A stretch of 64,000 nucleotides of DNA from a virus: positions 1-64,000 of IMG/VR virus record IMGVR_UViG_3300008267_000018; one strand, 5' to 3'. A program made the position numbers and the translations under genes. The notes beneath the pieces were generated by a model. That model was not told where the DNA came from. It saw only the letters and a program-made list of their open reading frames with translations, and ran no database searches. This document shows positions 14,824 to 17,105 of the stretch, in pieces (positions within the stretch are counted from its first letter, which is position 1; every line of letters begins with the position of its first letter).

Positions 14824-15018
14824 ATGGAAAAGAAAAAAGCCATTCCCCCCAAGAAAGCTGTGCCTCCTGCCAAGGGTAAGGCTGCACCTCCGGCAAAAGG
14901 CAAACCTGCTCCTCCCGTCAAAGGTAAAGCTGGTGTATCTGATAAGCAAGCTGAAGCTCGTGATCGTTTCAAGGAAATGATTGCTAAGAAAAAAGAAGCT
15001 GCTGCTAAAAAGAAATAA
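14824..15018 (+). CDS. Lys/Pro/Ala-rich basic repeat protein (histone H1-like composition)
   Basis: Repeats PPAKGK / PPVKGK. Confidence 0.65.
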   Translation: MEKKKAIPPKKAVPPAKGKAAPPAKGKPAPPVKGKAGVSDKQAEARDRFKEMIAKKKEAAAKKK

Positions 15019-15040
15019 GGTATCGCGCTATACTTTCAGT

Positions 15041-15122
15041 GCTCAATATCCACGTCTCGTCCCGTAGGTATTGGCGGTAAGTAGTTAGTTCTAGATCTCG
15101 GCTTGAGCAACCGAGATTTTTT
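15041..15122 (+). ncRNA. Candidate small RNA of about 80 nt
   Basis: TATACT at 15029-15034; 5' hairpin caatatc/ggtattg; 3' intrinsic terminator atctcgg/ccgagat plus T-run. Confidence 0.55.
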
Positions 15123-15130
15123 GTTATACT
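15122..15130 (+). promoter_or_regulatory. Extended -10 promoter (TGnTATACT) for the large RNA
   Basis: tgttatact directly after the terminator, about 6 nt before the structured region. Confidence 0.55.
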
Positions 15131-15134
15131 ACTA

Positions 15135-15522
15135 AGTGATAGAGGCCAGGTCCCTGTACGCGTTAGGCACATAGCCTAGAAGGCGACACACCTGGTCCAT
15201 CACACCACCCCTATTGCTTTGTCGGTAGGGTGCAACGCATGGACCGGAAATTTCCAGTCGCCGCGTTTGCGTTAAGTCCTGCGCATGCAGGCCAGGGGTG
15301 ATCAACCCTGCCAGTTAAATCCACTGGTGAGCCGGGGACCTATTAGGCAAGCTCAATGGATTTTGTATGTAAAGCCCTGAAGCGAGCCAGGTTTTGCGAC
15401 CTGGCAACATACAGCAACACCCCTCATGCCTAGCTTGATAACGAGGACGGCTTTACACCGGGCGCACGGGCTTGCAGGCATCCTCACTCAGTTATTAATG
15501 ACGCACAAACCGAGGGGTCACT
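15135..15522 (+). ncRNA. Large, highly structured candidate ncRNA (about 385 nt)
   Basis: No ORF of 60 aa or more; more than 10 helices of 5-9 bp including nested multiloops and possible pseudoknots. Confidence 0.7.
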
Positions 15523-15593
15523 CAACCGGTAGTCCAGTGGCAGGACACCCCGACAAGGGAGTTAGATAGTTGGTTCGATTCCAACGCGGTTGA
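15523..15593 (+). ncRNA. tRNA-like element 1 (shrunken anticodon arm)
   Basis: Acceptor caaccg/cggttg; D arm gtcc-agtggca-ggac; T arm gttgg-ttcgatt-ccaac; only ccc-cgacaa-ggg at the anticodon position. Confidence 0.7.
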
Positions 15594-15595
15594 TT

Positions 15596-15670
15596 CACCT
15601 GGTCCGAGACAATTGGATAGTACGGCTGCTGCGCTGCAGGGCGATGTAGGTTCGAATCCTACCCAGGTGC
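15596..15670 (+). ncRNA. tRNA-like element 2 (non-canonical D and anticodon arms)
   Basis: Acceptor cacctgg/ccaggtg; T arm gtagg-ttcgaat-cctac; ctgc-tgcgct-gcag with 6-nt loop. Confidence 0.65.
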
Positions 15671-15699
15671 TTTAGAGTGAGCAAACTCAAGCAAGTCAA

Positions 15700-16332
15700 A
15701 TGAGTTACCTCAATCACAACCTACCTACGTTCACGTGTTACATCCGAAACGAATTCCTATACAACCACAAGCAAGGCCAGGGTGATGTGACGTTGTGCGA
15801 TGTCCACTCAGTGGCTTCCCTGGAGAAACACGTCCCTTTATTTGAAGTCTTTTTAGAGAATGGTGTCAACTGGACAAGGCGTCCAATTCACGCTCTCTGC
15901 TGGAAGCCAGACGCCCCTAAGCCTGAGCTTAATGAATGCATGTGGTGGGATTGTTTCTCTCCGTATATTGATGTGCAAGTCCGGTCACGCCTCTCAAACT
16001 TACGTGCCCAGCTAATTACTTTTAAAGGGGAGAAGAAAGGTGGAGTCTATATGTTCACCCTTGACTGGTCATGGGAATCTAAATCAACTCTTAATACAAA
16101 CTTTAGTGAAACACCTGAGCATAAGTGTGCGCACTTCTTCCGGATGGATGATGGCAACTTCTATGCGTATCCCAATAACCGAGTCATCTGGTACGACGAT
16201 GCCTGGCTTAAGAACCGCATTGAAAAAAATCCTGGTTACGAGATTGACTTGACTGAGTACAGCGTGGAGAATTCACGGATGATTGAAACGTCCGATCACT
16301 TTATATACGAGACAACAGTCACAAGCAACTAG
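15700..16332 (+). CDS. Conserved phage hypothetical protein directly downstream of the RNA locus
   Basis: 210-aa Trp/Cys/His-rich ORF; WWDCFS, EHKCAH, GNFYAYPNNR. Confidence 0.75.
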   Translation: MSYLNHNLPTFTCYIRNEFLYNHKQGQGDVTLCDVHSVASLEKHVPLFEVFLENGVNWTRRPIHALCWKPDAPKPELNECMWWDCFSPYIDVQVRSRLSNLRAQLITFKGEKKGGVYMFTLDWSWESKSTLNTNFSETPEHKCAHFFRMDDGNFYAYPNNRVIWYDDAWLKNRIEKNPGYEIDLTEYSVENSRMIETSDHFIYETTVTSN

Positions 16333-16363: not shown

Positions 16364-16621
16364 TTGGCTTTGGTGCCAACCTCCAAAGAAAAGCTCCAGC
16401 GCAATAGACAAAAGTTTCTTGAATACAAGAAGACTTTGAATTGCCAGCACTGTGGGTTGGATGATCATCGTGTCCTTGAGTTCCACCATGTTGGTGACAA
16501 GGACCATAACATATCAAATATGGTCAACCACGGATACGGCTGGCGCCGCATCGAAGAAGAAATAAATAAATGTATTCCACTATGCTGCAACTGCCATAGA
16601 CTTGAGCACTGGACCAGCTAG
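16364..16621 (+). CDS. Small HNH-like zinc-binding protein
   Basis: CQHCG..LEFHH..EINKCIPLCCNCHRLEH. Confidence 0.75.
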   Translation: MALVPTSKEKLQRNRQKFLEYKKTLNCQHCGLDDHRVLEFHHVGDKDHNISNMVNHGYGWRRIEEEINKCIPLCCNCHRLEHWTS

Positions 16622-16655
16622 ATGCAGTATACTATTCATAATTAAAATTTTAATT

Positions 16656-17105
16656 ATGAAAAAATGCAGTCAATGTGCTTTACTAAAACCTTTAAATGAT
16701 TTTTATAATGAGCCAAGAGTCAAGGACGGCAAACAAGCAAAATGCAAAACTTGCCACAAAAAAATTACTGAAAAATATCGCAAAAATAATCCAGAGATTT
16801 ATAGAAAAGCTAGTTTAAAAAACTGGCATTCTTTAGATATTGAAGAAAGACAAGCAAGATGGATTAAACGATATGGCATTACCACCAAAGATTACAAACA
16901 GTTACTTGAAAAACAAAATGGTGTTTGTCAGATTTGCACAAAAAGCTGCTCTTCTCGACAGTTTTTATCTGTAGATCATTGTCATAAAACAGGAAAAGTT
17001 AGAGGGCTGCTTTGCGTTAAATGTAATACAGCCCTAGGAATGTTAGATGATAACGTTGAGTATTTTACTGCCGCAATTAATTACCTTAAGAATTCCGAAG
17101 AGTAG
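16656..17105 (+). CDS. Endonuclease VII-family homing endonuclease
   Basis: CQIC..LSVDHCHKTGKVRGLLCVKCNTALG; AT-rich. Confidence 0.85.
   Translation: MKKCSQCALLKPLNDFYNEPRVKDGKQAKCKTCHKKITEKYRKNNPEIYRKASLKNWHSLDIEERQARWIKRYGITTKDYKQLLEKQNGVCQICTKSCSSRQFLSVDHCHKTGKVRGLLCVKCNTALGMLDDNVEYFTAAINYLKNSEE

What the first reader, a model, noticed from the sequence alone, without database searches (positions are those of the whole stretch)
15135..15522. About 385-nt densely paired, multi-pseudoknot candidate ncRNA with its own promoter
Seen: an ORF-free stretch after an extended -10 box. Domain 1 is closed by aggtccctg(15148)/cggggacct(15333). It contains acgcg/cgcgt, taggc/gccta, gcgac/gtcgc, ctggtccat/atggaccgg, cctgc/gcagg, caggg/ccctg and ccagt/actgg. 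Possible pseudoknots are aacgca(15234)/tgcgtt(15268) and loop aaatcc(15317)/ggattt(15358). Domain 2 has tgtatgt/acataca, gccaggt/acctggc, cccctc/gagggg and atgcct/aggcat, plus cross-pairings aaagcc(15371)/ggcttt(15449) and caagct(15348)/agcttg(15432). The ends can pair (agtgat/gtcact). Established: large ornate phage RNAs such as GOLLD and ROOL often lie next to tRNAs. I see no RNase P, tmRNA or group I core signature. Inference: possibly an undescribed large structured RNA or ribozyme, perhaps partnered by the 210-aa protein at 15700.
Basis: partly seen in the sequence, partly recalled or inferred. Interest (0 to 1): 0.85.

Follow-up and report, generated by a model that had tools for sequence, protein, structure and literature searches.

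The report
Modular cyanophage RNA ending in AbiF-antitoxin look-alike
This lake cyanophage makes a roughly 390-base non-coding RNA that is a chain of separately folded, swappable modules, and its always-present last module looks like the small RNA bacteria use to silence their AbiF suicide nuclease, so the phage may use it to disarm that defence.

Summary
The ORF-free, promoter-led stretch 15135-15521 is a real conserved structured RNA. It is not one 385-nt multi-pseudoknot fold. Comparison with S-EIV1 and 24 environmental loci shows five separate modules (A, B, C, D, E) that relatives add, drop and reorder. Each of A, B, C and E has compensatory base changes. Only the ~105-nt module E (15417-15521) is always present, always 0-5 nt before a tRNA-like element or, in L011, another closed stem domain. 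Its domain closure, end pairing and atgcct/aggcat do not.

E shares the base architecture of abiF antitoxin leaders (ACA, 6-bp P1, A, 3-bp NGC/GCN' P2, CAAAY, P1'), with the loop replaced by a 70-nt arm. Rfam's abiF model RF03085 does not score it. A model built only from 12 toxin-linked leaders ranks E first in the window (18.7 bits, E about 0.006) and finds it in 13 of 18 E-bearing sources. The five phage records searched have no Abi_2 toxin gene.

Best reading: an orphan antitoxin-like decoy RNA, trimmed by tRNA-processing enzymes. Function and host AbiF are untested. Earlier notes of this scan reached this reading on other genomes. Metatranscriptome contigs cover only this RNA.

The parts
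15095..15122 (+). Terminator-like hairpin (7-bp stem, 9-nt loop) and T-run that closes the upstream 64-aa gene unit
   Evidence: Read. The simple scan missed it because its loop limit is 8. A like hairpin plus T-run precedes the island in L002, L005, L006, L009, L010, L011, L038 and L041.
15103..15130 (+). Promoter-like site: TTGAGC, 16 nt, TG-extended TATACT
   Evidence: 9 of 12, TG present. A TGnTAnnnT box stands 5-9 nt before the first module in 13 of 18 loci by regex. L006, L009, L041 and L046 have TATAAT-type boxes by eye.
15135..15203 (+). Module A: long hairpin with a 3-nt bulge, a variable helix S1 (CCAGGU/ACCUGG), a conserved CYCUG...CAC junction and a variable insert hairpin (here UAGGC-ACAUA-GCCUA)
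   Evidence: MFE z -4.66, 0 of 200 shuffles. S1 pairs in 14 instances with different sequences (CCAGGU/ACCUGG, UCAGGU/ACCUGA, CCAAGC/GCUUGG, GCAAGC/GCUUGC, GUAAGC/GCUUAC, GCAGAC/GUCUGC). One mismatch in L046, an insertion in L040.
15204..15273 (+). Module B: hairpin B1 (15209-15230, conserved 10-nt loop UGCUYUGUYG) and hairpin B2 (15232-15270, 3x3 internal loop, GGAAAUNUCC tip)
   Evidence: B1: 54 of 54 cells paired, 4 of 6 pairs changed on both sides, slid controls 31-59% (9 sequences). B2: 96.7% paired, 3 of 10 pairs changed on both sides, slid 23-50% (12 sequences).
15274..15363 (+). Module C: four helices plus the pseudoknot AAAUCC(15317-15322)/GGAUUU(15358-15363)
   Evidence: 98.5% of cells paired against 31-48% slid. 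6 of 26 pairs changed on both sides, 3 of them in the pseudoknot. Only 5 sequences from 2-3 lineages.
15364..15416 (+). Module D: hairpin with a 15-nt bulge whose UGUAAAGCC is complementary to the E loop GGCUUUACA
   Evidence: MFE z -3.44, 1 of 200. Also present in L038, with only one-sided G-C to G-U changes. 9-nt complement: 2 of 300 and 0 of 300 shuffles.
15417..15521 (+). Module E, the invariant core: rod of helices P1 (15420-15425/15512-15517), P2 (UGC/GCA), H3, H4, H5 with invariant internal loops. Its base has the abiF-antitoxin architecture.
   Evidence: 18 distinct sequences: 98.2% of cells paired against 41-46% slid, 14 of 25 pairs changed on both sides, 0 of 500 shuffles. RNAalifold finds the same fold. 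A model of toxin-linked abiF leaders ranks it first in the window, 18.7 bits. A descriptor hits only here. Single copy in the genome.
15522..15594 (+). tRNA-like element T1 (7-bp acceptor, D and T arms, 3-bp stem with a 5-6-nt loop in place of the anticodon arm). Proposed RNase P handle that sets the 3' end of E.
   Evidence: ARAGORN 'tRNA-??? (ca)'. Rfam tRNA-Sec 20.4 bits, below its gathering score of 47. Relatives lie in the tRNA arrays of S-PM2 and S-RIM8.
15597..15671 (+). Second tRNA-like element T2 (7-bp acceptor and T arm, irregular D region, 6-nt loop)
   Evidence: Read. Conserved in L006, L009, L010, L041 and, in another phage group, L034/L037/L039.

Best explanation
The stretch is the body of a promoter-driven RNA operon of an S-EIV1-like freshwater cyanophage. 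One transcript starts about 15136 and carries five independently folding modules (A, B, C, D, E), followed by two anticodon-less tRNA look-alikes.

Shown:
- The modules are real folded units.
- They are gained, lost and reordered between phages.
- Module E is the constant one and is the only DNA shared with an unrelated phage group.
- E always ends 0-5 nt before a tRNA-shaped element or, in L011, another closed stem domain.
- RNA-library contigs cover this stretch.

Inferred:
1. Host RNase P cuts at the 5' end of the tRNA-like element. This releases the modular RNA with a defined 3' end a few bases after helix P1. That is the same end geometry that a terminator gives to bacterial abiF antitoxin RNAs.
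2. The base of E copies the protein-binding architecture of the abiF RNA, which binds and silences the AbiF (Abi_2, HEPN) abortive-infection RNase.
3. The phage has no toxin gene, so E would act in trans as a surplus antitoxin. It would keep the host's AbiF inactive when infection shuts off host transcription.
4. The other modules are accessory. They may be decoys for other host factors or stabilisers.
For: Phage identity: complete 84.6-kb virus with terminal repeats, related to Synechococcus phage S-EIV1.

Modularity. Module maps read:
- window: A-B-C-D-E-T1-T2
- L010: A-B-E
- L006/L041: A-C-E
- L005: B2-C-E
- L038: D-E
- L011: B1..A-E-F-tRNAPro
- L008: A-B-E-short tRNA

Covariation: E, C, B1, B2, A.

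E is the best conserved DNA. It is 83-89% identical to phages with which nothing else in 7 kb aligns except module B or T2.

Expression: metatranscriptome contigs from 4 runs of 3 studies lie only within 15149-15550. The one exception is a low-complexity piece at 14982-15012.

abiF link:
- 11 RF03085 matches from Bacteroidota genomes, 6 of them at or above the gathering score, read aACAwr, P1, A, RGC, loop or P3 hairpin, GCY, CAAAUy, P1', U-run.
- An Abi_2 gene lies just downstream in 3 of 5 genomes checked.
- E reads ACA, P1, A, UGC, 70-nt arm, GCA, CAAACC, P1'. P1 and P2 are the helices that covary.
- A descriptor of this architecture hits the 64-kb window once, at 15420-15517. It hits 1 of 200 shuffled windows, 6 of 11 canonical motifs and 14 of 17 other E loci.
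- Model R2, built only from 12 toxin-linked leaders, gives E as the best of 28 matches in the window: 18.7 bits and E 0.0058, with the next at 12.6 bits.
- R2 finds E in 8 of 13 further loci (the 7 best matches are all E) and in 4 of 4 more.

No toxin: no Abi_2 in 5 of 5 E-bearing phage records.

Precedents:
- RCd22, an RNA with two abiF motifs, neutralises AbiF in cis and in trans by direct binding (passages of 10.1101/2025.04.15.648962).
- Phage PhiTE escapes ToxIN with an antitoxin-RNA mimic (PMC3475682; listing and start of abstract).
Against: - Rfam's own abiF model RF03085 finds nothing at E up to 10 in E, the S-EIV1 island, the L008 island, the whole genome or 5 further E-bearing records.
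- My model's scores are modest (12-24 bits) and its E-values are rough. It misses E in 5 of 18 sources (L005, L007, L012, L035, L036).
- I wrote the descriptor after seeing both families.
- E lacks the conserved abiF loop (CUCU...), the terminator and the toxin gene.
- The similarity rests on about 25 positions and could be convergent or chance.
- I could not show that the hosts of these phages carry AbiF or E-like leaders. The control Synechococcus elongatus has no Abi_2.
- No processing site is shown. One RNA contig runs across the E/T1 junction to 15550.
- RNA-library contigs do not exclude DNA carry-over.
Confidence: 0.5

Rival explanations
1. A chain of small stable RNAs of still unknown function that ride in phage tRNA-type operons, like the two unexplained stable RNAs C and D of the T4 tRNA cluster (recalled, not seen in any call here). 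The likeness of E to abiF leaders would then be chance or convergence.
For: - All evidence for modularity, covariation and tRNA adjacency fits equally well.
- RF03085 does not match.
- Module A also stands alone before a real tRNA in S-RIM8 and in L047.
- A permuted tmRNA and tRNAs sit in the same island in L042.
Against: A model trained only on toxin-linked leaders ranks E first in three separate searches totalling about 207 kb. The shared features fall exactly on the two covarying helices and their junctions.
Confidence: 0.3
2. E is a structured 5' leader that serves the odd tRNA-like gene behind it, for example by guiding or gating its processing, folding or modification. On this view E is not an RNA with its own target.
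For: E always lies 0-5 nt upstream of an acceptor-stem-like helix. The elements behind it are aberrant: 68-73 nt, reduced D arm, 5-7-nt loops.
Against: - E stays constant while the element behind it changes type: T1; short tRNAs called Ile, Met or Val; a 115-nt form; or module F. So it does not co-vary with its supposed client.
- T1 occurs without E in S-PM2 and S-RIM8.
Confidence: 0.1
3. One reading: one large, ornate, multi-pseudoknot RNA or ribozyme of about 385 nt, in the manner of GOLLD or ROOL.
For: - Dense pairing, and a real pseudoknot in module C.
- A significant 9-nt D-E complement.
- GOLLD also has a conserved 3' part and a variable 5' part and lies near tRNAs (passages of 10.1101/2024.12.08.627333).
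Against: - Modules are absent or reordered in relatives, and the proposed domain closures do not survive.
- S-EIV1 makes do with about 185 nt.
- No Rfam match to GOLLD, ROOL, raiA, HEARO, group I, RNase P or tmRNA at E up to 10.
Confidence: 0.07
4. Not an RNA at all: a short conserved peptide gene or a DNA-level site such as a palindromic protein-binding site.
For: The tips of B2 (GGAAATTTCC) and E (TGCGCA) are DNA palindromes. The reverse strand also folds well.
Against: - Changes are compensatory in stems, including G-U pairs that work on one strand only.
- The ATG of the 47-aa ORF at 15426 is lost in S-EIV1.
- RNA-library contigs cover the stretch.
Confidence: 0.03

Closest known systems
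abiF RNA motif (Rfam RF03085), the antitoxin RNA of AbiF/Abi_2 systems (RCd22 of Clostridioides difficile; the PbAbiF ncRNA is known to me only through the passage)
   Same: - ACA before the stem, 6-7-bp P1 and a single unpaired A.
- A 3-bp P2 of the form NGC/GCN' that covaries.
- A CAAAY 3' junction.
- Some canonical members also carry an extra P3 hairpin in the loop.
   Different: - The conserved CUCU loop is replaced by a 70-nt three-helix arm with invariant internal loops.
- No U-run terminator; a tRNA-like element follows instead.
- No Abi_2 gene in the genome.
- Not scored by RF03085.
Pseudo-ToxI of phage PhiTE (PMC3475682; search listing and start of abstract only)
   Same: A phage-borne RNA that imitates the RNA antitoxin of an abortive-infection toxin-antitoxin pair. 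That is how E is proposed to work.
   Different: Different toxin family (ToxN, not AbiF). It is a repeat array rather than a single ornate hairpin, and it arose as an escape mutant, whereas E is a conserved natural gene.
GOLLD and ROOL RNAs of phages (passages of 10.1101/2024.12.08.627333)
   Same: Phage-encoded, near tRNA islands, function unknown. GOLLD also has a conserved 3' region and a variable 5' region.
   Different: - No sequence or model match.
- About half the size or less.
- Built of shuffled independent modules rather than one fold.
- No evidence of multimer cages.
MALAT1/MEN-beta with mascRNA-type tRNA-like 3' handles (PMC8457004, listing only; family RF01684)
   Same: A tRNA-shaped element directly behind a longer non-coding RNA, proposed to recruit RNase P to make its 3' end. 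The short tRNA-like element of L008 has RF01684 as its best Rfam match (20.4 bits, E 0.089, below the gathering score).
   Different: Eukaryotic nuclear RNAs. No homology is implied, and cleavage is not shown here.
Stable RNAs C and D (species 1 and 2) of the phage T4 tRNA cluster
   Same: Small structured non-tRNA RNAs co-located with phage tRNA genes and of unknown function.
   Different: I compared no sequence. T4 RNAs are not known to be modular or abiF-like.

Membership tests
abiF RNA motif (RF03085) / AbiF antitoxin RNA | Match to the Rfam covariance model at or above its gathering score (37 bits) | tested here: not met
   No match even at E up to 10 in window 15405-15530, S-EIV1 island, L008 island, the whole own genome and 5 further E-bearing virus records.
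abiF RNA motif (RF03085) / AbiF antitoxin RNA | Core architecture: P1 of 6-7 bp, unpaired A, 3-bp P2 (NGC/GCN'), CAAAY junction, P1' (read from 11 RF03085 matches and one AbiF-linked viral leader) | tested here: met
   Searches give the template. E has every element, on its covarying helices. The descriptor hits the window once, at E, and 1 of 200 shuffled windows. The descriptor was written after seeing both families.
abiF RNA motif (RF03085) / AbiF antitoxin RNA | Recognised by a model built only from leaders that precede or match abiF loci | tested here: met
   R2: E is the top hit in the window (18.7 bits, E 0.0058). It is found at E up to 1 in 13 of 18 E-bearing sources and ranks first in each search. 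Scores are modest and E-values rough.
abiF RNA motif (RF03085) / AbiF antitoxin RNA | Lies directly upstream of an Abi_2 (PF07751) toxin gene | tested here: not met
   0 of 5 E-bearing phage records have Abi_2. Canonical motifs have it just downstream in 3 of 5 genomes checked. E is therefore an orphan.
abiF RNA motif (RF03085) / AbiF antitoxin RNA | Conserved CUCU-type P2 loop, and a U-run terminator after P1' | tested here: not met
   E has CUAGCU plus a 70-nt arm in place of the loop. UCACU plus a tRNA-like element follows instead of the U-run.
abiF RNA motif (RF03085) / AbiF antitoxin RNA | Binds and neutralises an AbiF protein | not testable with these tools
   Needs co-expression or binding assays. 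Host AbiF genes could not be reached.
GOLLD, ROOL, raiA, HEARO, manA, group I intron, RNase P RNA, tmRNA, YrlA (Rfam 15; I did not check that a YrlA family is in the library, its presence there is recalled) | Match to the family's covariance model | tested here: not met
   Window at gathering scores: only one tRNA, elsewhere. 14950-15750 at E up to 10: only tRNA-Sec, Plastid-ycf2 and mir-370 noise. ARAGORN finds no tmRNA. No TROVE/Ro gene for a Y-RNA reading.
tRNA-like 3'-end processing handle (mascRNA type) | tRNA-shaped element directly behind the RNA, cut by RNase P | tested here: inconclusive
   Adjacency is met in 17 of 18 lineages. Cleavage cannot be tested here, and one RNA contig spans the junction.

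The most novel reading that the evidence does not exclude
The whole transcript is a multi-decoy anti-defence cassette. Each swappable module (A, B1, B2, C, D, E) would be an RNA mimic that captures a different host RNA-binding defence or RNA-turnover protein. E would be the AbiF antitoxin mimic. The tRNA look-alikes would serve as built-in cutting signals. Phages would trade these modules horizontally as hosts change their defences. That would make it a natural, modular, RNA-only counter-defence system.
Probability: 0.2. Interest if true: 0.9.

Novelty: new variant of a known kind. Interest (0 to 1): 0.7.

Why it matters
If E does silence AbiF, it would be a natural, conserved, phage-encoded RNA antitoxin mimic in ecologically important lake cyanophages. 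Until now such mimicry is known mainly from laboratory escape mutants against ToxIN (PMC3475682).

It would also give a function to one member of the puzzling class of structured RNAs that cluster with phage tRNA genes.

It would show how tRNA-shaped elements can act as processing signals in bacteria.

The beads-on-a-string design, with modules exchanged between unrelated phages, is unusual for bacterial and phage RNAs. It offers a set of small, covariation-supported folds (A, B1, B2, C, E) for structural and binding studies.

AbiF is discussed as the ancestor of Cas13 (passage), so a natural RNA inhibitor of it has practical interest too.

Tried and rejected
RNase P reading: AAGUCC in module C and GGCUUUA in E could imitate helix P4. 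I dropped this because module C is absent from most relatives and no RNase P model matched.

tmRNA reading: ARAGORN and Rfam find none in the window. A permuted tmRNA does sit in the island of another phage (L042).

Y-RNA/Ro, CCA-adding enzyme and RtcB partners: none is encoded in the genome.

Docking of accessory modules on E loops: only the D-E complement (and a 7-nt one in L035) beats shuffles. L010, L012, L002 and L037 have none of 5 nt or more. It is not a general rule.

Extra pattern scans of IMG/VR found no new E. L015 and L016-L033 were chance matches.

The genome-collection scan found only a chance match in Fibrella. Plasmids: no match.

E is absent from S-PM2 and S-RIM8.

Module A of the second phage group shares GGCCAAGCCUCU with canonical abiF leaders (11 of 12 letters). 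It pairs differently and R2 does not score it, so I make nothing of it.

Reaching host genomes failed:
- The Dps search gave only phage-sized contigs.
- AbiF relatives in IMG/VR numbered only 2.

RNA runs: parts of the window without cover are not evidence of silence.

Literature:
- No paper on an S-EIV1 RNA, on cyanophage tRNA-like-linked RNAs or on AbiF in picocyanobacteria turned up.
- 'abiF' does not occur in the main text of PMC5737381; its supplement is closed too.
Full report
**What the window is.** The window is the first 64 kb of a complete 84.6-kb virus record with terminal repeats. Its nearest isolate is Synechococcus phage S-EIV1 from an arctic lake. Several flanking genes align with S-EIV1 at 67-78% DNA identity. 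Around the finding lie sugar-modifying genes and small unknown ORFs upstream. Downstream are a 210-aa phrog_3704 protein, an HNH gene, an endonuclease VII gene and a Dps gene.

**Relatives and modularity.** A pattern from the 3' part found 10 IMG/VR loci and 14 metagenome loci. With S-EIV1 and after removing duplicates, this gives 18 distinct versions of the 3' core. Laid side by side, they show that the RNA is built of units.
- I call the units A (15135-15203), B (B1 and B2, 15204-15273), C (15274-15363), D (15364-15416) and E (15417-15521).
- The window has A-B-C-D-E.
- L010 has A-B-E.
- L006 and L041 have a short A, then C-E.
- L005 has B2-C-E.
- L038 has D-E.
- S-EIV1 has A with a different insert, then E, about 185 nt in all.
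- L011 has B1, other hairpins, A, then E.
- L047 has A in front of a real tRNA-Met and B before E.

Each island that starts a transcription unit has a -10-like box a few bases before its first module: 13 of 18 by regex, and four more by eye. The loci fall into two phage groups that share no genes near the island. One group is S-EIV1-like. In the other, the island sits between ribonucleotide reductase and a phosphoesterase gene. Between the groups only E, B or T2 align, at 80-89%. The modules therefore move between unrelated phages or are held under very strong constraint.

**Structure of each module.**
- **E** is a rod of five helices.
  - 98.2% of 450 cells pair, against 41-46% when partners are slid.
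  - 14 of 25 pairs change on both sides.
  - No shuffle of 500 reaches any of the five measures.
  - RNAalifold, run on its own, gives the same fold plus an invariant GCUU/AGGC helix.
  - The internal loops (UAGCUUG, CGGCUUUACA, GCUUGCAGGCA, AAUGAY, CAAAC) are nearly invariant.
Three of the six pseudoknot pairs change on both sides. This rests on only five sequences.
- **B1** pairs in 54 of 54 cells, with four of six pairs changed on both sides.
- **B2** pairs in 96.7% of cells.
- **A**: helix S1 takes six different complementary sequence pairs in 14 instances.
- **D** is known from two lineages only.
- Folded alone, the modules take these shapes.

**The long-range pairings.** The closure of 'domain 1' joins A to C, yet A occurs without C and C without A. 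The end pairing is lost in five lineages. atgcct/aggcat breaks in half the sequences, while the competing UGC/GCA helix covaries at all three pairs. A systematic look for complements between E loops and upstream modules found only the D-E 9-mer, and a 7-mer in L035, above shuffles. Four islands have none. The RNA is thus beads on a string, not a globule.

**Expression.** Six RNA runs hold part of the stretch. I laid four of them, from three studies. All their contigs lie between 15149 and 15550, apart from a low-complexity piece at 14982-15012. Three contigs begin at 15149-15162, shortly after the predicted start. One is a relative in which part of module C is replaced. These are assembled contigs. 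They show presence in RNA libraries, not ends or strand, and DNA carry-over is not excluded.

**What E resembles.** Earlier notes of this scan on other genomes call the last module a toxin-less, stretched copy of the abiF antitoxin RNA. I tested this in four steps.
1. Rfam's RF03085 fails everywhere I tried.
2. I fetched 11 RF03085 matches from Bacteroidota genomes, 6 of them at or above the gathering score. They read aACA, P1 (CCYGCC), A, P2 (RGC), a CUCU loop or an added P3 hairpin, GCY, CAAAUy, P1', then a U-run. An Abi_2 gene follows within about 120 nt in 3 of 5 genomes checked. An AbiF-linked leader in an IMG/VR contig has the same plan with a P3 hairpin.
3. E reads ACA, CCCCUC, A, UGC, a 70-nt arm, GCA, CAAACC, GAGGGG. 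Its P1 and P2 are the covarying helices. P2 shows the same NGC/GCN' pattern as the canonical motifs, with UGC/GCA, AGC/GCU and GGC/GCC.
4. Two tests followed.
   - A descriptor of this plan hits the window once, at 15420-15517. It hits one of 200 shuffled windows. It was written with hindsight.
   - A covariance model built only from the 12 toxin-linked leaders was run without filters. It puts E first among 28 matches in the window, at 18.7 bits and E about 0.006, with the runner-up at 12.6 bits.
   - In 92 kb of other loci, that model's seven best matches are all E. It finds E in all four further S-EIV1-like loci and nothing in the two T4-like loci.
   - It misses E in five lineages.

None of five E-bearing phage records encodes Abi_2. 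The preprint on C. difficile reports that RCd22, with two abiF motifs, binds AbiF and neutralises it in cis and in trans.

**The tRNA look-alikes.** E ends 0-5 nt before one of the following:
- T1.
- A 68-71-nt tRNA-like gene that ARAGORN calls Ile, Met or Val.
- A 115-nt form.
- In L011, another closed stem domain.

The partner varies while E does not. This fits a role as an interchangeable RNase P signal better than a role as E's client. The best Rfam match of one such element is the mascRNA family, well below its threshold. After such a cut, E would end four or five bases past P1, much as a terminated abiF RNA does. This step is inferred.

**What is not shown.**
- That the hosts have AbiF.
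- That E binds it.
- Where the RNA ends.
- What A, B, C and D do.

The claim in earlier notes that Cyanobium-type hosts carry similar leaders could not be checked.

**Novelty.** The RNA is absent from Rfam 15, and I found no paper on it. The supplements of PMC10690425 and PMC5737381 are closed and may bear on this. I file it as a new variant of a known kind: an orphan, phage-borne, arm-extended, tRNA-terminated relative of the abiF antitoxin RNA, set in a modular RNA cassette.

Noticed in passing
window 15522-15594 and 15597-15671; L003 1504-1577; L004 1496-1568: Two anticodon-less tRNA look-alikes follow the RNA. Close relatives of the first sit inside the tRNA arrays of the T4-like cyanophages S-RIM8 and S-PM2. 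The second recurs in an unrelated phage group (L034/L037/L039) behind tRNA-Arg.
   Followed up: partly
L003 1655-1710 (S-RIM8): A copy of module A (GAUAGAGG..CCAUC with a covarying helix) lies directly in front of tRNA-Ala in a marine T4-like cyanophage that lacks module E. The 110-120-nt spacers before the tRNA-like element in S-RIM8 and S-PM2 hold other hairpins.
   Followed up: no
L042 2557-2877 (same phage as L040): A phage contig with an E module also carries a permuted, cyanobacterial-type tmRNA. RF04321 scores 52.7 bits, above its gathering score of 47. RF01851 scores 65.2 bits, below its gathering score of 70. ARAGORN also calls a permuted tmRNA.
   Followed up: no
L036 690-744; L014 414-467: Glutamine-II riboswitch aptamers (44.4 and 43 bits, gathering score 33) lie right after tRNA-Leu in phages of the second group.
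   Followed up: no
L008 562-629: The short tRNA-like gene behind E (ARAGORN: tRNA-Ile GAU, 69 nt) has the mascRNA-menRNA family as its best Rfam match (20.4 bits, E 0.089, below the gathering score of 42.5).
   Followed up: no
window 15368-15376 with 15447-15455: The bulge of module D carries UGUAAAGCC, a perfect 9-nt complement of an invariant internal loop of E. It is rarer than in shuffles (2 of 300; 0 of 300 in L038) but cannot be tested by covariation.
   Followed up: partly
L008, L047, L013, L035, L011 (module A 5' half): In the second phage group, module A begins GGCCAAGCCUCU. This matches 11 of 12 letters of the P1-A-P2-loop start of canonical abiF leaders, although module A pairs differently and the abiF-leader model does not score it.
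   Followed up: partly
window 15270-15328 in RNA run X17: A metatranscriptome contig from another lake study matches modules A, B, D, E and the start of T1 at 90-99%. It has 20 other letters in place of 57 nt of module C, so it is a further module variant seen as RNA.
   Followed up: no
window 15019-15094: The 75 nt between the 64-aa ORF and the terminator hairpin are conserved in L006, L009, L010 and L041. They contain a GGUAUUGG motif that is also present in S-EIV1, L005 and L038.
   Followed up: no
window 16364-17105 and 924-1691: HNH and endonuclease VII genes lie about 0.7 kb downstream of the RNA island. A second endonuclease VII gene lies at 924-1691.
   Followed up: no
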